Source: an uncultured Eubacteriales bacterium (GTDB taxonomy: Bacteria > Bacillota > Clostridia > TANB77 > CAG-508). Taken from it: a stretch of 64,000 nt of DNA. This document shows positions 8,635 through 43,277 of this stretch, one piece after another. The position numbers and the translations under genes were made by a program. The DNA is taken from contig CASEEU010000083.1 in assembly GCA_949287075.1 (NCBI GenBank), positions 3,039-67,038 of the forward strand, in the 5' to 3' direction. Below the pieces are notes generated by a model. That model made no database searches. It worked only from the letters and a program-made list of their open reading frames with translations, and was not told the DNA's origin. How positions within the stretch are numbered: the stretch's first letter is position 1; every line of letters starts with the position of its first letter.

Positions 8635-8864
8635 AACAATCCTCCAATTTTATAAAATTAATATACATATCAAAACGATATATTGAGTGAACTTTTAGTC
8701 AACGTGATATCAAAATTTAAAATTTTGGGGACACAATGGGGACAAAAGTACCCAAAATTGACTTAAAATCACTTAAAAATACATAACTTATAAATCAATA
8801 AAACCATTGAAATATAAGCAAAAACTATCAATTTCAATAAAATTCAAAAATTGCTAATAATACC

Positions 8865-26436: not shown

Positions 26437-27225
26437 ATGACAACAAAATCTATGAAAATACTAATAATAGAAGATGATAGAAATGATTGCAACAATTTTA
26501 TTAATAGTGTGAAGAATAGAGATGATGTAGAGATTATTGGAATCACGGATTCAGATGTAGAAGGACTAAAATATGCAAAATTAAAGAAACCAGAAGGTAT
26601 TATATTAGATTTAGAATTAAATAACAGTATGACAGGAAACGCAGATTCTTTGGGATTTTTGTCAGAGCTTAAAAAGTTGAATTTGGGTTATGAACCAATC
26701 ATTGTTGTGACAACACATATTCATTCAAAAAGAATATATGATATCGTTCATAAGAATGGTGCAGATATCATATTATATAAAAATCATCCAAGATATTCAG
26801 CAGACTATGTTTTGAATAAATTAATAAGTTTAAGAGAAGTAACACCAGAAAAAACAATAGAAACTTTAAAAGAAGAATTAGAAGATACTAGGCAAAAGAT
26901 ATCAGATTGCATTGTTAGAGAATTAGACTTAATAGGAATACCTGCTAAAATGGTAGGAAGAAAATATATACATGATGCAATTTTGTATTTGATTGAAAAT
27001 AAAGGAGATAATACAAACGTGATTAGACATTTAACAAATATATACAAAAAATCAGGAAATACAATTACGAATGGTATTCAAAATGCCATTATACATGCAT
27101 GGAATAATACACCAGTAGATGATTTGTTGGAATATTATAGAGCAAGAGTAAGTCTTGAAACTGGTATACCAACACCAATGGAATTTATATATTATTATGT
27201 AGAAAAAGTTGGAAGAGAAGTATAA
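26437..27225 (+). CDS. Response regulator with Spo0A-type C-terminal DNA-binding domain (Spo0A paralogue-like)
   Basis: 262 aa. The receiver domain has IIEDD, the phospho-acceptor ILDLEL, and TTH/K. The C-terminus (IGIPAKMVGRKYIHDAILYL...IQNAIIHAWNN...GIPTPMEFIYY) parallels the Spo0A_C signature (GVPAHIKGY.YLREAI...AIRHAIEVAW...PTNSEFI). Confidence 0.8.
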   Translation: MTTKSMKILIIEDDRNDCNNFINSVKNRDDVEIIGITDSDVEGLKYAKLKKPEGIILDLELNNSMTGNADSLGFLSELKKLNLGYEPIIVVTTHIHSKRIYDIVHKNGADIILYKNHPRYSADYVLNKLISLREVTPEKTIETLKEELEDTRQKISDCIVRELDLIGIPAKMVGRKYIHDAILYLIENKGDNTNVIRHLTNIYKKSGNTITNGIQNAIIHAWNNTPVDDLLEYYRARVSLETGIPTPMEFIYYYVEKVGREV

Positions 27226-27557: not shown

Positions 27558-29021
27558 ATGGGAGTGATATTTGTGGGAGAAATACAAGCAACAATAGAAT
27601 ATTTTTTTAAAATTAGCTTTATTAGCATATGTACTCTATATTTAAATTATAAGATTTTAAATATCAATGAGAAAAATATAAAAGAAAAAATAAAAATATT
27701 AATACAGGTAGTGATAGTGAATATATTTAGCACAATGTTAAAATATATTTCTAATTCTACAGTAGGTATAATGGTAATAGATGTATTTTTAGCATTAATT
27801 TTCTCGAAAAATATAAATAAGAATATAGGATATTCATTATTAATCACAACAATTTCTTTAAGTATTAATTATATTCTTTATATCCTTTCAGCAGCTATAA
27901 ATTATGTATTGTTTAAAAATTATGCTATTCAAAATAGATACATAGTTTTTATAGTTATTTTATTAGTAGATATTGTTTTATTAAAATTAATATCTGGAAT
28001 AAAAAAGTTTAATAAAGGAATCAGTTTTTTAAAAAAGAATGAAAATAATGAATATTTTGGAATTTTTATATTAAATATAAGTTCAACATTATTTTTTGCT
28101 TTTATAATGATTAATAATCTTGATAGGAGTATAGTAAGACCTTTATTTATATATCTTATCATTTTCTCCATCATCATGTTCATCACCATCCAAAAATCCT
28201 TACAGTTATACTACAAACAAAAACTACAAGAAAGAGAAGTAGAAGAAATCAAAGAAGAACTGAAAAATAAAGATAAAGAAATAAAAGAATTAGAAAAAGA
28301 AAATTTGAAACTTAACAAAAAGAATCATTCAATAGCACATAAACAAAAATCATTGGAATATGAACTAGAACAAATGGTGCTGAATAATCAAGTAGCAGAT
28401 GGAAATCATGTAAAAGATAAAATAGAAAATTTATCAAAAGAAATGCAAAATGAAACTGTCAGTATAGAACTAACGAAAACAAATATTGATGAAATTGATA
28501 GTATGTTAAAATATATGCAATCAGAATGTGTAAAAAATAAAATAGATTTTCAATTACAAGTAAATGGAAATATTCATCATATGGTAAATACATATATTGG
28601 AAAAGAAGATCTAGAAATTCTAATTGCAGACATGATAAAGAATGCCATCATAGCTATTAACCATTCTGAAAATATCAATAAAAGTATTTTAGTAAGATTA
28701 GGATTAATTGATGGTGCATATAGTTTATATGTTTATGATTCTGGTATAGAATTTGAAATAGATACATTAATTAATCTTGGAATAAAACCAAGTACAACAC
28801 ATGCAAATGATGGTGGTACAGGAATGGGATTAATGAATACATTTGATACATTAAAGAAATATAAAGCAAGTTTGGTTATTGATGAATATGGAAAACCAGT
28901 AAAAGACAATTTTACAAAAGTAATAAAAATTCTTTTTGATAATGAAAATACATATAAAATCGAGTCATATCGTAAAAAAGATATACAAGAAAAAGATATA
29001 AATAAAAGGGTTTCTTTTTAA
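27558..29021 (+). CDS. Multi-pass membrane sensor histidine kinase (GHKL ATPase, AgrC/HPK10-like architecture)
   Basis: 487 aa. About 6-7 N-terminal TM helices are followed by a coiled-coil (EVEEIKEELKNKDKEIKELEKENLKLNKK). A candidate phospho-His lies in NHSIAHKQKS, an N-box in ADMIKNAIIAINHS, and a G-box in DGGTGMGL. The GTG at 27573 behind GGGAG is an alternative start. Confidence 0.8.
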   Translation: MGVIFVGEIQATIEYFFKISFISICTLYLNYKILNINEKNIKEKIKILIQVVIVNIFSTMLKYISNSTVGIMVIDVFLALIFSKNINKNIGYSLLITTISLSINYILYILSAAINYVLFKNYAIQNRYIVFIVILLVDIVLLKLISGIKKFNKGISFLKKNENNEYFGIFILNISSTLFFAFIMINNLDRSIVRPLFIYLIIFSIIMFITIQKSLQLYYKQKLQEREVEEIKEELKNKDKEIKELEKENLKLNKKNHSIAHKQKSLEYELEQMVLNNQVADGNHVKDKIENLSKEMQNETVSIELTKTNIDEIDSMLKYMQSECVKNKIDFQLQVNGNIHHMVNTYIGKEDLEILIADMIKNAIIAINHSENINKSILVRLGLIDGAYSLYVYDSGIEFEIDTLINLGIKPSTTHANDGGTGMGLMNTFDTLKKYKASLVIDEYGKPVKDNFTKVIKILFDNENTYKIESYRKKDIQEKDINKRVSF

Positions 29022-29030
29022 GAAACCCTT

Positions 29031-30242
29031 TTAAAATCCAATAATATCGTTATAAATCTCAATTGCAAATTTATCTGTCATACCAGAAATATAGTAAATA
29101 ATACATTTATAAAAATCTTGTTCATTATTGAAATCAAAAATAACATCATTAATTAGTTTTAGTTCTTCTCGATTTCCTAAATCATAATAATTTGCTAAAA
29201 ATCCAAGGAAGCTATCATAAAGTTTTACAGAAATTTTAGATAATCTATTTTTTAAAGTAGAGATTGTATTTTCTTTATCATAACAAGATTTCAAAGTATC
29301 ATATATTTCATTTAAAACTAGTTCAAAATATTTAACAGAAGGTTTTAATCTATCTGAGAAATAGATATTTCTATAATTAAATTCTTTAATTTTATTTAAT
29401 AAATCAAAAGCTTCTTCTGAGAAACATAATCCTTTTTCAGGAGTTGAATTTTTAGCTAAATCACATACTAAATAATTAATAATAATAGTATTGTTAATTT
29501 TCTTTTCAGGTAAATCATAATGTAGCAATTTGTATAGTTCATCCAAATGTTCATCAATAATCCCCAAACTAATGGCATCTTCAATATCTCTTCCAATATA
29601 GGAAATTTTGTCAGAAATTTTTACGACACAGCCTTCCCAAGTATATGGAGCATATTGATTAGGTCTAACATAAGTAGTTAAATCAATATATTCTTGTCTA
29701 GGTTTTAAACAATTTTCATCAATTTCACCACAGTGAGAAATAATACCATCTCTGACAGCATATGTTAAATCTAAATTATCTTTATATTGATCTTTATTTT
29801 CTAATAATTCTATTTTATCTACAAATTCTAGACCATTTTTTTCATGCCAAAAGTTACAACCTAAGTCTCTTTGAGAGATAGTAGATAAAATCTTTTCTCC
29901 CGCATGACCAAAAGGACTATGTCCAATATCATGTGCTACAGAAATTGCTTTTGTTAATTCTGTATTTAATCCTAAATAACTTGCAATTGTATAACTAATG
30001 GATTCTACATGTGCAACATGTTCACTTCTTGTACAAATATGATCACTTTCTGGTGAGAAAAATACTTGTGTCTTATGTTTTAGTCTTTTATAGGCATTTG
30101 AATGTGTAATTCTTGTATAATCTCTGTCAAAAACAGAACGAATATCCTCTGGATTGGTTAGTAAAGGCTTTTGTCTTTTGGATATAGTTTCCCAATTTGG
30201 ATGATGCATATTAGCTGCATAATCTTTAAAAACATTTTCCAT
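29031..30242 (-). CDS. dGTPase-family dNTP triphosphohydrolase-like HD protein
   Basis: 403 aa. FDRDYTRITHSNAYKRLKHKTQVF, TRSEHVAHV and HDIGHSPFGHAGE are hallmark segments of the Dgt/dNTP triphosphohydrolase family. Confidence 0.85.
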   Translation of the reverse strand: MENVFKDYAANMHHPNWETISKRQKPLLTNPEDIRSVFDRDYTRITHSNAYKRLKHKTQVFFSPESDHICTRSEHVAHVESISYTIASYLGLNTELTKAISVAHDIGHSPFGHAGEKILSTISQRDLGCNFWHEKNGLEFVDKIELLENKDQYKDNLDLTYAVRDGIISHCGEIDENCLKPRQEYIDLTTYVRPNQYAPYTWEGCVVKISDKISYIGRDIEDAISLGIIDEHLDELYKLLHYDLPEKKINNTIIINYLVCDLAKNSTPEKGLCFSEEAFDLLNKIKEFNYRNIYFSDRLKPSVKYFELVLNEIYDTLKSCYDKENTISTLKNRLSKISVKLYDSFLGFLANYYDLGNREELKLINDVIFDFNNEQDFYKCIIYYISGMTDKFAIEIYNDIIGF

Positions 30243-30625: not shown

Positions 30626-31201
30626 ATGGCAAATTCAAAATTAATTGTAGTAGAAGGTCCACAAGGAGCAGGAAAAACAACAGTAACAGATTATTTAAGA
30701 TATTCATTAAGTTATACAAATTTATATAGATTATGCGGAACGGCAGATAGCTCTGCAGAAGGCAAGAAAAAAACAGAAGACATGTATATTAACTTATTGG
30801 AATATATAAAAAAAATGGAAAATAAAAGTATTAATCTAGTATTTGATAGAACATTTTTTACAGAAGAAAATTATTGTAGACTTGGGAAAAAAGAATATAC
30901 TTTTACAGATGTATATGAAAAATTATTAGAAGAATTTAGTAAATTAGATTTTGAAATATACTATATAACTTTATATTTAGAAGATGTGGAAAAATATCAT
31001 ACGAGATTGGATAGAAAAGATAAAGCAATTTTCAAAAATTCTAAATTTGAAGCTGAAAATAGTATTAACCAACAAAGAGTGTATCTAGAAATGTCAGAAG
31101 AAATACAAGCAAAATATCCCAATATTCAAGTGAAAAATATTGCAAATGATGGAGATTTTGAAAAAACAAAGAAAGAAATAAGAGAATTTATAGGATATTA
31201 A
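30626..31201 (+). CDS. P-loop nucleoside/nucleotide kinase-like protein (thymidylate/deoxynucleoside kinase superfamily)
   Basis: 191 aa. The Walker A motif is VEGPQGAGKTT at the extreme N-terminus, followed by a DR motif (VFDRTFF). Confidence 0.55.
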   Translation: MANSKLIVVEGPQGAGKTTVTDYLRYSLSYTNLYRLCGTADSSAEGKKKTEDMYINLLEYIKKMENKSINLVFDRTFFTEENYCRLGKKEYTFTDVYEKLLEEFSKLDFEIYYITLYLEDVEKYHTRLDRKDKAIFKNSKFEAENSINQQRVYLEMSEEIQAKYPNIQVKNIANDGDFEKTKKEIREFIGY

Positions 31202-31346
31202 AATAAAGAGAAAAACAAAGAAAAAGAGAGAAAATAAATGAAATAGTAAAAAATAGAATTGCTAGAAACAAAGAAAATCTGTACTTGTTAAAATATGACA
31301 AAAATGAAATTTGTCATATTTCACATTTATACTGTATAATATATAT

Positions 31347-31987
31347 CGATGGTGCATTATTCTAGTCATACTCAAGTTTATGAGGGTGGGGCTAAAAATC
31401 CACTAAAGGGCATATCGTTGAAGTTCTTTGAATGTGCGCGAAACGCCAAGTTTGTGTGTGTTCAGGGAGTAAGAAATTCGGGTATTATATAATGGCATAT
31501 ATAAGATTCCCTGGTTTCGCGGAGGCTTAAATTTATGATAAATGTATCTTTTTATACATAATTTAAGAGTAACCTGTGATGCGTGCCAAGACACAAAAAG
31601 CACAGAGTAGCCTGTCTTGAGTGAATGTATTGGGATTAAATCATTAGTAAAGCATAGTTTTGGCCAAATTAGTTTTACTGTACTTATGAAATTTCATTTG
31701 CAAAAAAGACTAATAAACTTGTAAAGTATGTTAAGGAAAACTTCTAGAATGTTTGCTTCCATAGAAGCATAGAAGTCTTTGGATTAAGGTACAGATTTAA
31801 GTGGCAATCTGGTAGCTATAGTTTCTATAGATATTTCCCTTAAACGGAAACGGCAATAGCAGTAATGCTATGCGGGAAATAGAGAAATTCAACCAGACCT
31901 AAACTGTAAAATTTACTTAGACTTTTACCATCTCAAATAAAAAATATTAAGAGGAAATCTTGGGAAAAACTCAAAATTTCCTCTTTT
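31347..31987 (+). ncRNA. Large (~640 nt) structured non-coding RNA candidate, OLE-like by size and synteny (family unverified)
   Basis: Promoter: TTGTCA (31311-31316), 18 nt spacer, TGTATAAT (31333-31340). No credible ORF lies on the + strand. G+C is visibly higher than the surroundings. Nested stems are visible, e.g. ACTTCTA[..GCTTC-CATA-GAAGC..]TAGAAGT near 31740-31780, CTATAG-TTT-CTATAG near 31815, and TTTCCC..[GCAATAGCA-GTAA-TGCTATGC]..GGGAAA near 31835-31880. Terminator: AAGAGGAAAT...ATTTCCTCTTTT at 31949-31987. Confidence 0.55.
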
Positions 31988-32105
31988 GAATGATGATTTT
32001 GGGGACGGAGCAAAAAATCATCATTTTGTTCTTTAAAAAGTTTTAAATGAAATATTCTTTATAAAATGGTGATTTTTTGCTCCGTCCCCAAAATCATCAT
32101 TCAAA
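31985..32105. repeat. ~120 nt element made of two 36-38 nt inverted arms, each itself a hairpin
   Basis: TTTGAATGATGATTTTGGGGACGGAGCAAAAAATCATCA (31985-32023) and its near-perfect reverse complement at 32068-32105 differ at one position. The arms are separated by about 44 nt of AT-rich spacer. Confidence 0.7.
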
Positions 32106-32127
32106 AAAAGAAAGGAAAGAGATAAAA

Positions 32128-32844
32128 TTGAAAGAAAAGACGAAAAAAGCAAAAGGAAAACCGTGTGAGGAAGATGCAGAAAAAATAAGACAAGAAATGA
32201 AAAAAGCTGTAAGACAAGAAAGTGCTAAAACAGAAAAAGAGAATGAAAAAGAAATAGAAGAAGTAAAGGAAAAAATAGAACAATCAAAAAGAAAAAAAGA
32301 AAAACAGAACAAGAAATATGAAAATGTGAAATGGTTTATAGAAGTTTTTATTATGACTTTTATATTATCTATTGTGTTTTCATATATATCAACAAATGGG
32401 GTGTCAAATTTAAGTTTAATACCAGCTATCCTGATTTTAGTAGCAGTTATCTTAGTAGGTATCATATTTGACATTGTGGGTGTAGCTGTAACAGTTGCAG
32501 ATGAACATGAATTTCATGCAAAAGCAACGAAAAAAGTAAAAGGTTCAAAAGATTCTATTAAATTAATTAGAAATGCACCTAGAGTTGCCAATATTTGTGC
32601 AGATGTTATTGGTGACATTTGTGGAGTATTAAGTGGTGCCATAAGTGCATTAATTGCACTAAAAATTACCAACCAATTTGGATTAAATTTTGATGTGCAA
32701 TTCTTATTAAGTGCTTTGGTTTCAGCTCTAACAGTTGGTGGAAAAGCATTAGGAAAAACAGTTGCTAATAATAATTCAACTAGAATTGTTCATGCAGTTG
32801 GTATGGTATTTAATAAGTTTAGTAGAAATAAAGATAAAAAATAG
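32128..32844 (+). CDS. Membrane protein with Lys/Glu-rich N-terminal region and four predicted TM helices (OapA-like position)
   Basis: The ORF track starts at 32077, inside the inverted repeat. The TTG at 32128 behind GAAAGGAAAGAG is a more plausible start. The C-terminal half has four hydrophobic helices with conserved-looking acidic residues (IIFDIVGVAVTVADEHE, ICADVIGDICGVLSGA). Confidence 0.6.
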   Translation: MKEKTKKAKGKPCEEDAEKIRQEMKKAVRQESAKTEKENEKEIEEVKEKIEQSKRKKEKQNKKYENVKWFIEVFIMTFILSIVFSYISTNGVSNLSLIPAILILVAVILVGIIFDIVGVAVTVADEHEFHAKATKKVKGSKDSIKLIRNAPRVANICADVIGDICGVLSGAISALIALKITNQFGLNFDVQFLLSALVSALTVGGKALGKTVANNNSTRIVHAVGMVFNKFSRNKDKK

Positions 32845-32936: not shown

Positions 32937-33695
32937 ATGAAAGTTTTAATCACAGGAGCGTCATCAGGAATCGGAAAAGATATGGCAAGGATATTAGCCA
33001 AAAAAGCAGATGAATTGGTTTTGGTTGCAAGAAATACTGAAAAGTTAGAAGAAATCAAAAAGGAATTAGAGAATGATGCAAAAATAGAAATCATCTCTAA
33101 AGACTTAAGTATAGAGGAAAACTGTAAAGAAATCCACAATCAAGTACAAAATGTGGATATCTTAATTAACAATGCTGGATTTGGAGATTGCGGAAATTTC
33201 ACAAAAACAAGTTTAGAAAAAGATATCAACATGATAAAAACCAATATTATTGCTTATCACATATTAACCAAATTATATTTAACAGATATGAAAGAAAAAA
33301 ACAGTGGAAAAATCTTAAATGTGGCATCGATTGCAGGATTTATGCCAGGACCATTAATGGCAACCTATTATGCAACAAAAAATTATGTCATTAAATTATC
33401 AGAGGGAATTCGCGAAGAATTGAAAAAGGAGCATTCTAAGGTACAAATTAGTATATTATGTCCAGGACCAGTAGAAACAAATTTTAACAAAGTAGCCAAT
33501 GTAGATTTTCATTTAAGAGAGGCAAACAGTATGAAAGTAGCAAAATATGCCATTCAGAAATTAGAAAAAGGTAAATTTTATATTGTTCCAGGAATAGATA
33601 TAAAAATATCAAGAATTGGGGCAAAAATATTGCCAACAAATATCATTAGTAAATTTGCATATATGGTGCAAAAGAGAAAACTAGGTGGAGAATAA
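32937..33695 (+). CDS. Short-chain dehydrogenase/reductase (SDR) family oxidoreductase
   Basis: 252 aa. TGASSGIGK cofactor motif, NNAG, and catalytic YYATK. Confidence 0.85.
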   Translation: MKVLITGASSGIGKDMARILAKKADELVLVARNTEKLEEIKKELENDAKIEIISKDLSIEENCKEIHNQVQNVDILINNAGFGDCGNFTKTSLEKDINMIKTNIIAYHILTKLYLTDMKEKNSGKILNVASIAGFMPGPLMATYYATKNYVIKLSEGIREELKKEHSKVQISILCPGPVETNFNKVANVDFHLREANSMKVAKYAIQKLEKGKFYIVPGIDIKISRIGAKILPTNIISKFAYMVQKRKLGGE

Positions 33696-33752: not shown

Positions 33753-34646
33753 TTACAAATTTCCAATGGCTGTTTTAATAGCCTGTATAGAATTTTCTAA
33801 TCTTAATTTTTCACTATTTTCTAAATCTAATGTATTAGATTTTTCAATACCATCTTTTCCAATGATAGAAGGTGTACTGGTAAATATTCCATAATCTTCT
33901 AGATAAGAACATACAGGTAAACATACCTTTTCATCAAAAATAATTGCTCTGGTAATTCTACTTAAAGCAGAAGCAATACCATATGCAGTAAAGCCTTGTG
34001 ATTTTGAAACATCAAAACCAGCTTTTTTAACAGCGCTTTCAATATTTGTCATTTCTGATTCAGGTAATTTTTCAACATTAACGGTAGACCAAGGAATAAA
34101 TTGACTATCTCCATGTTCACCAAGAACAAGACCTGTTACCTCTGTAATCGGTTTTTGATATTTTTCTGATAAAACATAACGTAATCTTGCTGTATCTAAT
34201 AATGTTCCAGAACCAATTACTTTTTTTGGATCACAATTCGTATATTTCCATGTTACATATGTCATAACATCTAAAGGATTTGTAGCAATTAAATAAATTC
34301 CAGAAAAATTCGTTTTATTAATTTCAGAAAGAATATTTTTTAAAATCGTATTTGCTTTATGCAAGTCTTCCATTCTAGAAGTTTTTAAATCTGATTGTTT
34401 AGGACCAGCTGTTATACAAATAATATCTGCGTCTTGACAATCAGAATAATTTCCTAAAATGACTTTTGTAGAGGTATTTAAATTATAGGTACTATGATTT
34501 AAGTCAGCAACTTTCCCTAATAATGTTTCTTTATCTACATCAATTAATATCAATTCTTTTATATCCAAACATTGATTTAATACAGAATAGGCATATGCCA
34601 TTCCTACATTTCCGCAACCAATAATCACAAGTTTATTCAAAATCAT
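33753..34646 (-). CDS. ldh: L-lactate dehydrogenase family (2-hydroxyacid dehydrogenase)
   Basis: 297 aa. IIGCGNVGMAYAY dinucleotide fold, ITAGP, and the GEHGDS substrate/catalytic loop. Confidence 0.8.
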   Translation of the reverse strand: MILNKLVIIGCGNVGMAYAYSVLNQCLDIKELILIDVDKETLLGKVADLNHSTYNLNTSTKVILGNYSDCQDADIICITAGPKQSDLKTSRMEDLHKANTILKNILSEINKTNFSGIYLIATNPLDVMTYVTWKYTNCDPKKVIGSGTLLDTARLRYVLSEKYQKPITEVTGLVLGEHGDSQFIPWSTVNVEKLPESEMTNIESAVKKAGFDVSKSQGFTAYGIASALSRITRAIIFDEKVCLPVCSYLEDYGIFTSTPSIIGKDGIEKSNTLDLENSEKLRLENSIQAIKTAIGNL

Positions 34647-34790: not shown

Positions 34791-36014
34791 ATGGAACGTC
34801 AGATATTGCATGTAGATGTGAATAATGCTTTTTTAAGTTGGACAGCATTAGATATGATAAAAAATGGAAGTAAAGTTGATATAAGAGAAATACCAGCTGT
34901 TATTGGAGGAGATGAGTCCAAAAGGTCAGGAATTGTTTTGGCTAAAAGCATGAAAGCAAAAGAATGTGGTGTAAGAACAGCTGAAACGATTTATCAAGCA
35001 AGAATAAAATGTCCAGGATTAAAAGTGTTTCCATCAAATTTTAAAATATATAGGCACTATTCAAATCAGTTGTATCAATTATTATTAGAATACACAGACA
35101 AAATTGAAAGATTTAGTATCGATGAATGTTTTTTAGATATGACCCATTATTTAATGAATGATACTTTATTGAATAAAGGTAAAGAAATTAATAGAAGGGT
35201 AAAAGAAGAGTTAGGTTTTACAGTAAATGTTGGCGTGGCACATAATAAACTTTTAGCTAAAATGGCATCAGATTTTACAAAGCCAGATAGGGTTCATACT
35301 CTTTTCGAAAATGAAATACAAAATAAAATGTGGACACTACCTGTTTCAGAGTTATTTATGTTAGGAAAAAGAACAGTACCTAAATTACAGAATATGCAAA
35401 TAAAAACCATTGGAGATTTGGCAAAAACGAATAAGAGAATTCTACAAGATAAATTTGGAAAACATGGAACGATGATGTGGGAATATGCTAATGGAATTGA
35501 TAATTCTGAAGTGAAATATCAAAAAGAAAAACCAAAAGGAATTGGAAATTCTGTTACATTACCAGAGGATGTTTCAAATATAGAGAAACTAGAAGAAATA
35601 TTATTAGCTTTAACAGAACAAGTAACATATAGATTAAGAAAACAAAAGATGTTAGCAAGAGTGGTTAATGTGCAATTGAGAAATAAAGATTTTGTTGATA
35701 CTTCTCATCAAAGAAAATTACCAAATGCAACAGGAAGTACAAAAGAAATTTTTAATCATGCAAAAGAATTGTTAGAACAAATGTATAGAAAGGGAACACC
35801 TATTAGATTAATAGGTGTAAGAGTGGATGATTTAACAGATACAGAAGAAATGCAAATATCTTTATTTCAAGATGAGATAAAAAATGATAAACAAGAAAAA
35901 TTGGACAAAACTATTGATCAGCTAAAAGAAAAATATGGATATAATTTGATAACAAGAGCAGGAAAAATGGGAGTAGAAGATTTTATAAAATTTAGAAAAG
36001 AAGATGAGAAATAA
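34791..36014 (+). CDS. dinB: DNA polymerase IV (Y-family translesion polymerase)
   Basis: 407 aa. ILHVDVNNAFLS, SIDECFLD and the HNKLLAKMASDFTKP motifs are typical of DinB. Confidence 0.9.
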   Translation: MERQILHVDVNNAFLSWTALDMIKNGSKVDIREIPAVIGGDESKRSGIVLAKSMKAKECGVRTAETIYQARIKCPGLKVFPSNFKIYRHYSNQLYQLLLEYTDKIERFSIDECFLDMTHYLMNDTLLNKGKEINRRVKEELGFTVNVGVAHNKLLAKMASDFTKPDRVHTLFENEIQNKMWTLPVSELFMLGKRTVPKLQNMQIKTIGDLAKTNKRILQDKFGKHGTMMWEYANGIDNSEVKYQKEKPKGIGNSVTLPEDVSNIEKLEEILLALTEQVTYRLRKQKMLARVVNVQLRNKDFVDTSHQRKLPNATGSTKEIFNHAKELLEQMYRKGTPIRLIGVRVDDLTDTEEMQISLFQDEIKNDKQEKLDKTIDQLKEKYGYNLITRAGKMGVEDFIKFRKEDEK

Positions 36015-41436: not shown

Positions 41437-42903
41437 ATGAAGAAATATTCATTAGAAATAACGGTGTTTTTAAGTGGTGCACTAACCATGATGTTAGAGC
41501 TAATTGCAGCAAGAGTATTATCACCATATGTGGGAAGTTCTAATTTGATATGGACGACCATTATAGGAATCATGTTAACAAGTATGAGCATAGGATATTG
41601 GTTTGGTGGAAAAATGGCAGATAAAAATAAAGAAAATGACATAAAGATTTTATCTAATTATTTATTGGTTTCTGCCATTGCAACAAGCATTATACCAATA
41701 CTAGAAGTTATATTTATAGATGTGTTATCGCAACTTTCAAGTAACTTAATTGTTGTTGCTATCATATGTGCAACTGTCACATTTGGAATACCAAGTTTCT
41801 TATTAGCAACTGTATCTCCAATAGCAGTAAAAATAAAAAATAATAGTATGGATCATATAGGTGCAACATCAGGAAAAATATCATCACTATCTACAATAGG
41901 AAGTATTTTTGGTACATTTTTTGCAGGATTTATATTGATACCAAATTTAGGGGTAAGAAATATTATATTAGGATGCTCTATTTTGTTATGGATATTATCT
42001 GTATATCTATTTAACAAAAAGGATAAGAAATATTATATGTTAATGATGGTAGAATTAGTTGTTATTATTGCTCTGAATCTATTAGGAGGATATCTATTTC
42101 AAATAAAAAATCCTGAAATAACAAAAGATGTTGATTCTGAGTATAGTAGAATATGGGTAACAAATCTTAATGTAGATGAAACTACTTATAAGACGCTACA
42201 AGTAGATACAGGTTTAGAATCTTACATAAATCAAGAAACTGGAGAAATGGGAGCAACATATTTATATTATTATGATTTATTTGAATATTATGATAAAGAA
42301 GCAAATAATGCATTGATGATAGGTGGAGCAGCATATACTTATCCAATGCATTATTTAAAAAAATATGAGAATAAAACAATCGATGTTGTAGAAATTGACG
42401 AAAAAATGACACAGATTGCAGAAGAAGAATTTGGACTAGATAAGAACAATCCTAATTTGGGATTAATTACACAAGATGGAAGAAGCTATTTAAATTATAA
42501 TGAGAAAAAATATGATACAGTTTTTATAGATGCGTTTAAAGGTCTAAATGCTCCATTTGAATTAACAACCTATGAGGCTATGCAAAAGGTATATGATAGT
42601 TTAGATGAAAACGGAACAGTCATAACCAATATTATATCAGCAATCGAAGGGAAGGATGCAGACTTTATTAAATATGAATATAGCACATATAAGGCTGTAT
42701 TTGATGATGTAAAAGTATATCAGGTAAATTCAGATCATTTACCAGAAGAAAAGCAAAACTTAATCTTAGTAGGTATTAAAGGAAATGGAAATATAAATAC
42801 TGACAAAGAAGAAGAATATAATGAGTTATTAAGTAATGAAATAAAAGATTTTACGAGTGATAAACAAGTTGTTACAGATGATTATGCACCTATAGGAGAT
42901 TAA
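41437..42903 (+). CDS. Fused multi-pass membrane / spermidine synthase-like (class I methyltransferase fold) protein
   Basis: 488 aa. About 7 N-terminal TM helices precede a C-terminal aminopropyltransferase-like domain (ALMIGGAAYTYP...VVEIDEKM...DTVFIDAF). Confidence 0.7.
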   Translation: MKKYSLEITVFLSGALTMMLELIAARVLSPYVGSSNLIWTTIIGIMLTSMSIGYWFGGKMADKNKENDIKILSNYLLVSAIATSIIPILEVIFIDVLSQLSSNLIVVAIICATVTFGIPSFLLATVSPIAVKIKNNSMDHIGATSGKISSLSTIGSIFGTFFAGFILIPNLGVRNIILGCSILLWILSVYLFNKKDKKYYMLMMVELVVIIALNLLGGYLFQIKNPEITKDVDSEYSRIWVTNLNVDETTYKTLQVDTGLESYINQETGEMGATYLYYYDLFEYYDKEANNALMIGGAAYTYPMHYLKKYENKTIDVVEIDEKMTQIAEEEFGLDKNNPNLGLITQDGRSYLNYNEKKYDTVFIDAFKGLNAPFELTTYEAMQKVYDSLDENGTVITNIISAIEGKDADFIKYEYSTYKAVFDDVKVYQVNSDHLPEEKQNLILVGIKGNGNINTDKEEEYNELLSNEIKDFTSDKQVVTDDYAPIGD

Positions 42904-42904
42904 A

Positions 42905-42955
42905 ATTGCCAGGAGTTGCCAAAGGGGACGTGCCTTTTTGGCAACTTCTGGCAAT
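42905..42955 (+). terminator. Long hairpin terminator
   Basis: ATTGCCAGGAGTTGCCAAAGG-GGACGTG-CCTTTTTGGCAACTTCTGGCAAT, followed by TTCTT. Confidence 0.6.
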
Positions 42956-43043
42956 TTCTTATAAATTTATCTGTTCGATGGATGAGATTTGAAAAAAGTC
43001 TTGACTTTTACGAATATATTTGTTATCATATTATTTGCAAAAT

Positions 43044-43119
43044 GCGGGAATAGCTCAGTTGATAGAGCGCTGCCTTGCCAAGGCAGAGGTCGCGGGTTTG
43101 AGCCCCGTTTCCCGCTCCA
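43044..43119 (+). tRNA. tRNA-Gly (anticodon GCC)
   Basis: The cloverleaf was read by eye: acceptor GCGGGAA/TTCCCGC, D-arm GCTC..GAGC, anticodon stem CTGCC/GGCAG with loop TTGCCAA, T-arm GCGGG-TTTGAGC-CCCGT, and an encoded CCA. Confidence 0.9.
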
Positions 43120-43202
43120 ATTTTTGTTCCACTGTTACAAAAAATAAAAATGGTTATAATACAGTCATTGTTTATAAGTTTGGAACATATAATTTAATAT
43201 AT

Positions 43203-43277
43203 GGCGACATAGCCAAGTGGCTAAGGCACGAGTCTGCAAAACTCTGATCCCCGGTTCGAATCCGGGTGTCGCCTCCA
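43203..43277 (+). tRNA. tRNA-Cys (anticodon GCA)
   Basis: Acceptor GGCGACA/TGTCGCC, anticodon loop CTGCAAA, T-arm CCGGG-TTCGAAT-CCGGG with GTTCGAATC, and an encoded CCA. Confidence 0.9.

What the first reader, a model, noticed from the sequence alone, without database searches (positions are those of the whole stretch)
31347..31987. ~640 nt highly structured intergenic RNA with its own promoter and terminator, followed by a 4-TM membrane protein: OLE/oapA-like locus or another large ornate RNA
Seen in sequence:
- The 870 nt gap between the kinase-like gene and the next CDS has a good promoter (TTGTCA, 18 nt spacer, TGTATAAT) and a terminator (AAGAGGAAAT...ATTTCCTCTTTT).
- It has no plausible + strand ORF. 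The only tracked ORF is a 66 aa minus-strand one without signals.
- G+C is higher than in the flanks.
- Many nested helices are present, some capped by GNRA-type loops (GCAATAGCA-GTAA-TGCTATGC, CG-GAAA-CG, GCTTC-CATA-GAAGC inside ACTTCTA...TAGAAGT, TTTCCC...GGGAAA).
- The next gene encodes a protein with four TM helices and conserved-looking intramembrane acidic residues.

Established knowledge:
- OLE RNAs are about 600 nt and occur in anaerobic or extremophilic Firmicutes.
- They are characteristically followed by oapA, which encodes a small multi-pass membrane protein that localises the RNA to the membrane.
- Other large ornate RNAs (ROOL, GOLLD, HEARO) also occur in Firmicutes.

Inference:
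- This is a large functional ncRNA.
- OLE is my best guess from size and synteny, but I cannot verify the consensus from memory.
- The Lys/Glu-rich N-terminal extension of the membrane protein would be atypical.
Basis: partly seen in the sequence, partly recalled or inferred. Interest (0 to 1): 0.65.

Follow-up and report, generated by a model that had tools for sequence, protein, structure and literature searches.

The report
OLE RNA gene with oapA

Summary
Rfam's OLE model (RF01071) matches window 31333-31947 (+) over its full length at 341.9 bits (gathering score 50, E 8.5e-97). No other large RNA family matches anywhere in the window.

Support from 69 relatives and from RNA data:
- OLE sits directly upstream of the same membrane-protein gene in all 76 of 80 related loci where OLE was detected.
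- The Rfam structure is 93.5% paired, against 32-51% for slid controls, with 57 pairs showing compensatory changes.
- The -35 and -10 promoter boxes keep their spacing while the spacer varies.
- Four gut metatranscriptomes cover 31353-31937 at word depth 100-1100, against 0-20 on both flanks.
- The 66-aa minus-strand ORF is intact in only 6 of 70 relatives.

The downstream protein (32128-32844) has the OapA hallmarks: four core helices, an invariant DxxxD motif, a basic loop, a weak CNNM Pfam match, and a model whose top five PDB matches are CorB/CorC transporters.

Local peculiarities:
- P13 lacks the GNRA loop and bulge that OapB binds, as in the published "variant 1".
- OLE has its own promoter and terminator.
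- OapA carries a Lys/Glu-rich N-terminal tail specific to this lineage.
- A variable palindromic element lies between the two genes.

Verdict: already known, low interest.

The parts
31311..31340 (+). sigma-70-type promoter of ole: -35 TTGTCA (31311-31316), 18-nt spacer, -10 TATAAT (31335-31340). Predicted start about 31347-31349.
   Evidence: Best promoter-like site in the region, 11/12. Both hexamers and their spacing are conserved in about 70 relatives while the spacer and upstream flank vary. The start site is inferred, not mapped.
31333..31947 (+). OLE RNA gene (Rfam RF01071 match). The functional RNA probably runs from about 31347 to about 31930-31989.
   Evidence: 341.9 bits, E 8.5e-97, model 1-616/616. 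137 of 159 consensus pairs are canonical in the window. Covariation in 69 distinct relatives. Metatranscriptome contigs cover 31353-31937 at word depth 100-1100, against 0-20 in the flanks.
31367..31384 (+). 5' strand of a long-range helix that pairs with 31710-31730. It is not in the Rfam structure. It probably corresponds to P3/P3.1, the helix that encloses domain 1.
   Evidence: RNAduplex gives -17.4 kcal/mol. On alignment A2 the cells are 94.5% paired against 31-50% when slid, and 10 pairs change on both sides against 2-6. The assignment to published P3 is inferred from the description in PMC12265935.
31710..31730 (+). 3' strand of the long-range P3-like helix
31415..31474 (+). P5 hairpin with flanking bases that could form the k-turn bound by OapC/YbxF: U31415-C31416, bulge GUU, G31420-A31421 ... 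A31471-A31472, G31473-A31474
   Evidence: The flanking bases AUC, the bulge U31419 and GAAG are invariant in A2. P5 pairs covary. The register was deduced from the text of PMC9723947. The window's subclade lacks one base 3' of P5, so k-turn formation is uncertain.
31816..31830 (+). P13 equivalent: CUAUAG-UUU-CUAUAG, with no GNRA tetraloop and no single-base bulge. The primary OapB binding site is absent.
   Evidence: The cmscan alignment shows deletions in P13 and its loop. The loop is variable in sequence and length across A2. The requirements for OapB binding come from PMC7936274.
31832..31881 (+). P14/P14.1: UAUUUCCC ... GGGAAAUA enclosing the conserved loop UUAAACGGAAACG and the hairpin 31853-31873, which is capped by a GUAA (GNRA) tetraloop
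   Evidence: Consensus helices 20 and 21 show 6 pairs each with compensatory changes. The GUAA loop is nearly invariant.
31949..31989 (+). intrinsic terminator of ole: a nested hairpin followed by UUUU
   Evidence: Inverted repeat I2. Folds at -16.2 kcal/mol. Conserved in 10 close relatives while the DNA just downstream is hypervariable. RNA depth drops 10- to 100-fold here.
31977..32113 (.). 51-nt-arm palindrome (REPIN/MITE-like) inserted between the terminator and the oapA ribosome-binding site. Each arm carries a GGGGACGG core inside its own small stem.
   Evidence: Arms are 94% complementary. Folds at -70.7 kcal/mol. Present, partial or absent among close relatives. The same core occurs in other intergenic hairpins. 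Not part of OLE.
32128..32844 (+). oapA: 238-aa membrane protein, TTG start, ribosome-binding site AAAGGAAAGAG at 32111-32121
   Evidence: 5720 homologues. The ribosome-binding site and TTG start are conserved in close relatives. Encoded immediately downstream of OLE in 76 of 80 related loci. Weak CNNM PF01595 match. The AlphaFold core model has pLDDT 78 and its top five PDB matches are CorB/CorC.
32128..32325 (+). Lys/Glu-rich N-terminal tail of OapA (residues 1-66: 20 K, 16 E, 3 R, 1 D), predicted helical
   Evidence: Composition. Present only in the closest relatives; others have tails of 5-25 aa. Modelled as a long helix at low confidence.
32602..32616 (+). DxxxD motif of OapA (D159-V-I-G-D163) in the third membrane helix
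   Evidence: D159, V160, G162 and D163 are invariant and I161 nearly invariant across 18 aligned homologues; both aspartates are also invariant across 66. DxxxD is described as distinctive of OapA in PMC11332333.

Best explanation
Window 31347 to about 31989 (+) is an ole gene. It encodes an OLE RNA of about 600 nt, one of the known large, highly structured non-coding RNAs of Bacillota.

Shown here:
- The RNA has its own conserved sigma-70-type promoter and ends at its own intrinsic terminator.
- It is far more abundant in gut metatranscriptomes than the neighbouring mRNAs.
- The next gene, oapA (32128-32844), encodes a four-helix, CNNM-like membrane protein with the DxxxD motif.

Inferred from work on Halalkalibacterium halodurans and Clostridium OLE, not tested here:
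- OapA dimers bind the RNA and hold it at, or through, the cell membrane.
- The RNA dimerises, and the ribonucleoprotein helps the cell cope with stresses such as cold, short-chain alcohols, excess Mg2+ and poor carbon sources.
- The biochemical activity of OLE RNA itself is still unknown in every organism.

This copy lacks the P13 GNRA loop and bulge that OapB recognises. It therefore probably works with fewer protein partners, as published for the reduced 'variant 1' OLE RNAs of uncultured gut Clostridia.
For: - Rfam OLE match: 341.9 bits against a gathering score of 50, E 8.5e-97, full model. 137 of 159 consensus pairs are canonical.
- On 69 distinct relatives the Rfam structure is 93.5% paired, against 32-51% slid. 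57 pairs and 442 cells change on both sides, against 22-31 pairs and 76-134 cells slid. No shuffle out of 500 reaches the observed values.
- A long-range P3-like helix is also supported by covariation.
- OLE was detected directly upstream of the oapA homologue in 76 of 80 related loci. Four of six tested in Rfam score 326-365 bits over the full model.
- The promoter hexamers are conserved while the spacer varies. The terminator folds at -16.2 kcal/mol and is conserved.
- RNA contig depth is 100-1100 over 31353-31937, against 0-20 in the flanks, in four metatranscriptomes.
- No reading frame is conserved.
- OapA: invariant DxxxD and basic loop; CNNM PF01595 at E 2e-3, below threshold, as published for OapA (PMC11332333); the top five PDB fold matches are MtCorB 7M1T/7M1U and CorC 7CFF at probability 0.95-1.0.
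- Host context: relatives are gut Clostridia MAGs, and a Spo0A-like gene lies in the window.
Against: Nothing argues against the identity. The limits are these:
- Function and membrane localisation are extrapolated from other species.
- The RNA evidence comes from assembled contigs of related strains (90-100% identical), which give presence and rough depth but not exact ends or strand.
- The primary OapB site is missing, and the strand 3' of P5 in the k-turn region has a 1-base deletion. The protein composition of the particle may therefore differ from the H. halodurans model.
- Foldseek E-values for CorB are weak (0.04-1.2) and TM-scores modest (0.38-0.53).
- No OapB-like or OapC-like ORF was found among the seven small ORFs scanned, but a 64-kb window cannot show that these genes are absent from the genome.
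Confidence: 0.96

Rival explanations
1. It is a different large ornate RNA (ROOL, GOLLD, HEARO, raiA), RNase P, tmRNA or a group I/II intron.
For: Size and structural complexity alone would allow it.
Against: No such family reaches its gathering score anywhere in the window, nor E<=1 in 31150-32200. OLE explains the whole length at 342 bits.
Confidence: 0.005
2. It is a long cis-acting leader (riboswitch or attenuator) of the oapA mRNA rather than an independent RNA.
For: It is on the same strand as oapA and immediately upstream, with no strong promoter between them. Some RNA signal continues past the terminator in one run, X31, at depth 29 over 31938-32054. In H. halodurans ole lies within a polycistronic transcript (PMC12265935).
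Against: A conserved terminator separates the two genes. RNA depth over OLE is 30-100 times that over oapA. A hypervariable spacer, with or without an inserted palindrome, lies between them. OLE is known to act in trans as a stable RNP component. Read-through that supplies oapA mRNA is compatible with the main explanation.
Confidence: 0.02
3. The region encodes a small protein, for example the 66-aa minus-strand ORF or the 47-aa plus-strand ORF.
For: ORFs of 47 and 66 aa exist in the window.
Against: The 66-aa ORF is stop-free and in frame in only 6 of 70 relatives. The longest stop-free stretch is variable, 39-98 aa. Substitutions follow base-pairing, not codon structure.
Confidence: 0.005
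4. It is a decaying, non-functional OLE remnant in a reduced genome.
For: P13 has lost the OapB site, and distal P7 pairs poorly in the window. Relatives show shortened P7, and one (L010) has a 375-nt OLE.
Against: The match is full length. Hundreds of columns are invariant across relatives whose neighbouring sequence is hypervariable. Compensatory changes are present. The promoter is conserved. RNA abundance is high. An intact, highly conserved oapA follows.
Confidence: 0.01

Closest known systems
OLE RNA (Rfam RF01071), as studied in Halalkalibacterium halodurans and solved by cryo-EM for Clostridium botulinum and C. acetobutylicum
   Same: - Length of about 600 nt.
- Full match to the covariance model.
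- Conserved single-stranded blocks.
- P5-P9 domain enclosed by a long-range helix.
- P12-P15 domain with the UUAAACGGAAAC loop and a GNRA-capped P14.1.
- oapA immediately downstream.
- Bacillota host.
- High RNA abundance.
   Different: - It has its own promoter and terminator instead of lying inside a long polycistronic cluster (PMC12265935).
- P13 has no GNRA loop or bulge, so the primary OapB site is absent.
- One base is deleted 3' of P5, in the k-turn region.
- G+C is very low (34%).
- The neighbours are a P-loop kinase-like gene, an HD-domain phosphohydrolase, a short-chain dehydrogenase, lactate dehydrogenase and DNA polymerase IV. I did not compare these with the published list of ole-linked genes.
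'Variant 1' OLE RNAs of uncultured gut Clostridia (TANB77 clade), Fernando and Breaker 2024 (PMC11332333)
   Same: - The host is an uncultured, AT-rich gut Clostridia lineage.
- The OapB-binding bases at the tip of P13 are missing.
- Many relatives in the same alignment have a much shortened P7.
   Different: - In the window itself P7, P8 and P9 have about the consensus lengths (615 nt against a 616-nt model), so it is intermediate between 'full-length' and 'variant 1'.
- I could not verify that the host belongs to GTDB order TANB77.
[quoted passage not shown]
   Same: - Four membrane helices.
- DxxxD motif.
- Basic cytoplasmic loop.
- Sub-threshold PF01595 match.
- Fold most similar to MtCorB (7M1T, 7M1U), the same structure reported as the top match for H. 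halodurans OapA.
- No CBS or CorC_HlyC domains.
   Different: - It carries a 66-residue Lys/Glu-rich N-terminal tail found only in the closest relatives.
- C. botulinum OapA is described as having an N-terminal signal sequence instead (PMC12265935).

Membership tests
OLE RNA (RF01071) | Scores above the curated gathering threshold of the covariance model over most of its length | tested here: met
   341.9 bits against 50, model positions 1-616 of 616
OLE RNA (RF01071) | Consensus secondary structure maintained, with compensatory changes among homologues | tested here: met
   93.5% of cells paired against 32-51% slid. 57 pairs change on both sides against 22-31. The structure was projected from the window's own Rfam alignment, which favours the unslid version on percentage paired, but the counts of compensatory pairs are independent of that.
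OLE RNA (RF01071) | Long-range helix (P3/P3.1) enclosing domain 1 and linking it to domain 2 | tested here: met
   31367-31384 pairs with 31710-31730. 94.5% paired, 10 covarying pairs. Equivalence to published P3 is inferred.
OLE RNA (RF01071) | oapA as the immediate downstream neighbour | tested here: met
   Seen in the window and in 76 of 80 related loci
OLE RNA (RF01071) | Host in Bacillota, typically an anaerobe or extremophile | tested here: met
   The closest loci are uncultured gut Clostridia/Clostridium MAGs. A Spo0A-like gene lies in the window.
OLE RNA (RF01071) | Expressed as an abundant, stable RNA of about 600 nt | tested here: met
   Four metatranscriptomes give depth 100-1100 over 31353-31937 against 0-20 in the flanks. 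Exact ends and strand are not resolved because the data are contigs.
OLE RNA, full-length type | GNRA tetraloop and single-base bulge in P13 (OapB binding site) | tested here: not met
   P13 is CUAUAG-UUU-CUAUAG (31816-31830), with a variable loop in relatives. The criteria come from PMC7936274. This matches the published variant 1, not the full-length type.
OLE RNA, full-length type | k-turn next to P5 (OapC/YbxF binding site) with a conserved C-G pair beside a 3-base bulge | tested here: inconclusive
   C31416-G31473, bulge GUU, and G-A and A-A pairs are possible, and the 5' strand is invariant. However, one base is missing 3' of P5 in this subclade. The register was deduced from text only.
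OLE RNA (RF01071) | Membrane localisation, dimerisation and stress phenotypes | not testable with these tools
   Known only from experiments in H. halodurans and E. coli and from cryo-EM of Clostridium RNAs (PMC12265935, PMC12286853)
OapA | Small protein with four transmembrane helices | tested here: met
   The AlphaFold core model has helices at core residues 2-29, 32-68, 76-119 and 125-150, plus a C-terminal helix at 152-171. Kyte-Doolittle windows pass 1.6 for three of them. I did not score the fourth separately, and it did not reach the threshold.
OapA | DxxxD motif, absent from CNNM domains | tested here: met
   Both aspartates of D159-V-I-G-D163 are invariant in the alignments of 18 and of 66 homologues (PMC11332333)
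OapA | Cluster of basic residues on the cytoplasmic face | tested here: met
   The loop HAKATKKVKGSKDSIKLIRNAPR (residues 130-152) is almost invariant. The cytoplasmic location is inferred from the positive-inside rule.
OapA | Distant similarity to the CNNM domain (PF01595) in sequence and fold, without CBS or CorC_HlyC domains | tested here: met
   PF01595 at E 2.1e-3, 18.2 bits, below the cut-off of 28.4. Foldseek ranks 1-5 are 7M1T, 7M1U and 7CFF at probability 0.95-1.0. No other domains were found.
OapA | Absence of the conserved CNNM proline | not tested
   No residue-level alignment to CNNM was made.
OapA | Direct sequence match to an experimentally studied OapA (H. halodurans, C. botulinum CLB_RS09010) | not tested
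None of the listed homologues carried the name.
OapA | Cooperative binding to OLE RNA | not testable with these tools
   Biochemical property
ROOL / GOLLD / HEARO / raiA / RNase P / tmRNA / group I-II introns | Match to the respective Rfam model | tested here: not met
   No hits at gathering thresholds in the window, nor at E<=1 in 31150-32200

The most novel reading that the evidence does not exclude
In this lineage of host-associated, AT-rich Clostridia the OLE particle may be a pared-down, essentially two-component device of OLE RNA plus OapA. The OapB site has been lost. The OapA protein has gained a long Lys/Glu-rich cytoplasmic helix that could take over RNA-chaperoning or tethering roles played elsewhere by OapB or OapC. 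If so, this clade would offer the simplest natural OLE ribonucleoprotein for reconstitution and structural work.
Probability: 0.1. Interest if true: 0.4.

Novelty: already known. Interest (0 to 1): 0.2.

Why it matters
OLE RNA is one of the largest bacterial non-coding RNAs whose biochemical function is still unknown. Recent work proposes that it spans the membrane. This locus adds no new kind of element. It is a routine annotation that standard protein-based gene calling would leave as a 900-nt 'gap'.

Its modest value is as a clean, compact example with these features:
- an independently transcribed and terminated ole gene;
- very high representation in gut metatranscriptomes;
- a natural loss of the OapB site;
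- an OapA variant with a charged tail.

These could help in choosing minimal systems for reconstitution.

Tried and rejected
- Pfam and NCBIfam have no OapA model. Only sub-threshold hits were returned, of which CNNM is the meaningful one.
- Sequence searches of the PDB with the protein and with a profile gave only insignificant LolE matches.
- The first AlphaFold run, on the full-length protein with 18 sequences, was too poor to use (pLDDT 59). The core-only run with 66 sequences reached 78.
- The consensus terminator scan found nothing. The hairpin was found by the repeat search and by folding.
- I looked for OapB-like (KOW) and OapC-like (L7Ae) proteins among seven small ORFs of the window and found none. 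This says nothing about the rest of the genome.
- I tried to confirm from the literature that the relatives (for example Clostridium sp. CAG:440) belong to GTDB order TANB77 and found nothing.
- The palindrome at 31977-32113 matched only generic hairpin models (plant miRNA precursors) below threshold, and no plasmid.
- One candidate helix, 31360-31363 with 31734-31737, is invariant and conflicts with the consensus P10 hairpin, so I did not count it as evidence.

Full report
**What is there.** The 926-nt gap between the P-loop kinase-like gene (30626-31201) and the next coding sequence (start 32128) holds a full-length match to Rfam's OLE model, RF01071. The match is at 31333-31947 on the + strand, 341.9 bits against a gathering score of 50, E 8.5e-97, covering model positions 1-616 of 616. 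The only other Rfam hits in the 64-kb window are two tRNAs. ROOL, GOLLD, HEARO, raiA, RNase P, tmRNA and introns do not match, either at gathering thresholds or at E<=1 in 31150-32200. Of the model's 159 consensus pairs, 137 are canonical pairs in the window sequence.

- Promoter. TTGTCA-18-TATAAT (31311-31340) is the best promoter-like site in the region, 11 of 12. In this AT-rich DNA such sites are no more frequent than in shuffles: 11 found against 10.3 expected.
- Terminator. The hairpin is at 31949-31985. It folds at -16.2 kcal/mol and is followed by UUUU.
- G+C. It is 34.3% in the RNA, against 26.9% for the window and 19-29% in the flanks.
- Helices. The other two, CG-GAAA-CG and ACUUCUA/UAGAAGU, are not. 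Those bases form a conserved internal loop or pair elsewhere.

**Comparative evidence.** An alignment of homologues of the downstream protein was used to fetch 80 loci from species-representative genomes. All are uncultured gut Clostridia or 'Clostridium sp.' MAGs from humans, chickens, rabbits and mice.
- nhmmer with the window's RNA finds OLE directly upstream of the protein gene in 76 of the 80. The partial matches lie mostly in loci cut at a contig end; L010 and L039 are described below.
- Four of six loci tested in Rfam score 326-365 bits over the full model.
- On an alignment of 70 OLE sequences (69 distinct), the projected Rfam structure is paired in 93.5% of cells. Partners slid by 1-3 columns give 32-51%.
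- 57 pairs and 442 cells change on both sides, against 22-31 pairs and 76-134 cells when slid. No shuffle out of 500 reaches the observed values.
- The percentage paired is partly circular, because the structure came from the window's own alignment to the model. The compensatory counts are not.
- A long-range helix absent from the Rfam structure, 31367-31384 with 31710-31730, is also supported. It is 94.5% paired with 10 covarying pairs, for example one column pair with CG 31, GC 28, UA 6, AU 2. I take it to be the published P3/P3.1 helix that encloses domain 1 (PMC12265935). That equivalence is an inference.
- The -35 hexamer (TTGTCA, TTGGAA or TTGTAA) and the -10 TATAAT keep their spacing across about 70 loci, while the spacer and everything upstream vary. 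This is much better evidence for the promoter than the single-sequence match.
- The terminator is conserved in ten close relatives, whereas the DNA right after it is hypervariable.
- No reading frame is conserved. The 66-aa minus-strand ORF is intact in 6 of 70 relatives, and the longest stop-free stretch ranges from 39 to 98 aa.

**Expression.** The sequence is found in many bird, chicken and other gut metagenomes and in several metatranscriptomes.
- In four metatranscriptome runs, contigs cover 31353-31937 at word depths of about 100-1100. Both flanks, including oapA, are at 0-20.
- No high-depth contig extends past those limits.
- One run has contigs joined to sequencing adapters at 31356 and 31930.
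- These are assembled contigs from related strains, without strand information. They show an abundant discrete RNA of about the right size, not its exact ends.

**The downstream gene.** ORF 32128-32844 has a TTG start preceded by AAAGGAAAGAG, and both are conserved in close relatives. It encodes 238 aa and has 5720 homologues.
- The core of about 170 residues is very conserved. It includes D115, the loop HAKATKKVKGSKDSIKLIRNAPR, and D159-V-I-G-D163, whose two aspartates are invariant in the alignments of 18 and of 66 homologues.
- DxxxD, four membrane helices, a basic cytoplasmic cluster and a distant relation to the CNNM domain are the published hallmarks of OapA (PMC11332333; PMC12265935).
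- Pfam gives a sub-threshold CNNM match: PF01595, E 2.1e-3, residues 102-231.
- An AlphaFold model of the core (pLDDT 78, pTM 0.64) has four long helices plus a C-terminal one.
- Its five best PDB matches are the archaeal CNNM MtCorB (7M1T, 7M1U) and the CorC membrane domain (7CFF), at Foldseek probability 0.95-1.0. All later hits are at 0.28 or below. 7M1U is the structure reported as the top match for H. halodurans OapA.
- The E-values (0.04-1.2) and TM-scores (0.38-0.53) are modest, so this is supporting rather than decisive evidence.
- I could not compare directly with an experimentally studied OapA sequence.

**How it most likely works.**
- Shown here: an independently promoted and terminated, abundant, structurally constrained OLE RNA next to an OapA gene.
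- Inferred from H. halodurans genetics and biochemistry and from cryo-EM of Clostridium OLE RNAs (PMC12265935, PMC9723947, PMC7936274, PMC12286853): OapA binds the RNA cooperatively and brings it to the membrane. The RNA dimerises, and the particle supports growth under cold, alcohol, Mg2+ and carbon-source stress.
- The chemical activity of OLE is unknown everywhere, so it is unknown here too.

**Differences from the textbook case.**
1. P13 is CUAUAG-UUU-CUAUAG (31816-31830). It has neither the GNRA tetraloop nor the single-base bulge required for OapB binding. This is the published signature of 'variant 1' OLE RNAs from reduced gut Clostridia, which mostly lack OapB and OapC. The secondary GNRA site on P14.1 (GUAA) is retained.
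2. P7-P9 have about consensus length in the window, though many relatives have a very short P7. The window copy is therefore intermediate between 'full-length' and 'variant 1'.
3. The bases that would form the OapC k-turn are largely conserved: U-C, bulge GUU, G-A on the 5' side, and A-A, G-A on the 3' side. However, this subclade has lost one base 3' of P5, so the result is inconclusive.
4. ole is a stand-alone transcription unit here, whereas in H. halodurans it is part of a polycistronic cluster.
5. OapA carries a 66-residue Lys/Glu-rich tail (20 K, 16 E) found only in the nearest relatives. Other members of the clade have 5-25 residues. By the positive-inside rule the tail would be cytoplasmic, on the same side as the basic loop. 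This is an inference.

**Verdict.** This is an already known kind of element, found in a clade where it has already been catalogued, so interest is low. The most novel reading still open is that this clade has a minimal OLE-OapA particle in which the charged tail replaces lost protein partners. That is speculative; I put it at about 0.1.

Noticed in passing
window 31977-32113; also window about 42890-42960 and about 8720-8745; L014 10332-10431; L049 5647-5689; L067 1293-1329; L008 313-391: A 137-nt near-perfect palindrome (51-nt arms, -70.7 kcal/mol) sits between the ole terminator and the oapA ribosome-binding site. Each arm is a small stem of variable sequence around a conserved GGGGACGG core. 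It is present, partial or absent among very close relatives. Hairpins with the same core occur in other intergenic spots. It looks like a dispersed REP/REPIN- or MITE-like element. No Rfam family reaches threshold and no plasmid matches.
   Followed up: partly
window 31293-31319: The palindrome ATATGACAAA-7 nt-TTTGTCATAT overlaps the -35 box of the ole promoter. It is present only in the window's subclade, and in some members one arm is mutated. It could be an operator for a regulator of ole.
   Followed up: no
L010 4406-4780: A chicken-gut MAG carries a 375-nt OLE (183 bits) with an intact promoter. It lacks everything from distal P5 to the 5' side of P9, which is nearly all of domain 1. This is a larger deletion than the published variant 2. 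It is either a natural mini-OLE or an assembly artefact.
   Followed up: partly
L039 4100-4880: An ABC-transporter ATPase reading frame runs straight into the 3' third of OLE (model positions 436-595), with no 5' part of the RNA. This is probably a chimeric assembly, or possibly a rearrangement.
   Followed up: partly
window 31356 and 31930: In one metatranscriptome (X25), contigs carry Illumina adapter sequence directly joined at 31356 (5' side) and 31930 (3' side). The 3' point coincides with the end of sequence conservation (…ACCAUC), upstream of the terminator hairpin. This hints at 3' trimming of the mature RNA. Only a single contig supports each end.
   Followed up: no
window 32128-32325: The Lys/Glu-rich N-terminal tail of OapA varies from about 5 to about 70 residues across the clade. 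It changes by in-frame insertions and deletions, while the membrane core stays 75-95% identical.
   Followed up: partly
window 26437-27225, 27558-29021, 29031-30242, 32937-33695, 33753-34646, 34791-36014, 43044-43274: Neighbourhood: a Spo0A-like regulator, a membrane histidine-kinase-like protein, an HD-domain (dGTPase-like) phosphohydrolase, a short-chain dehydrogenase, lactate/malate dehydrogenase, DNA polymerase IV and two tRNAs. The order ole-oapA-dehydrogenase is kept in 66 of 80 related loci. The HD gene is found in 41 and polymerase IV in 50.
   Followed up: partly
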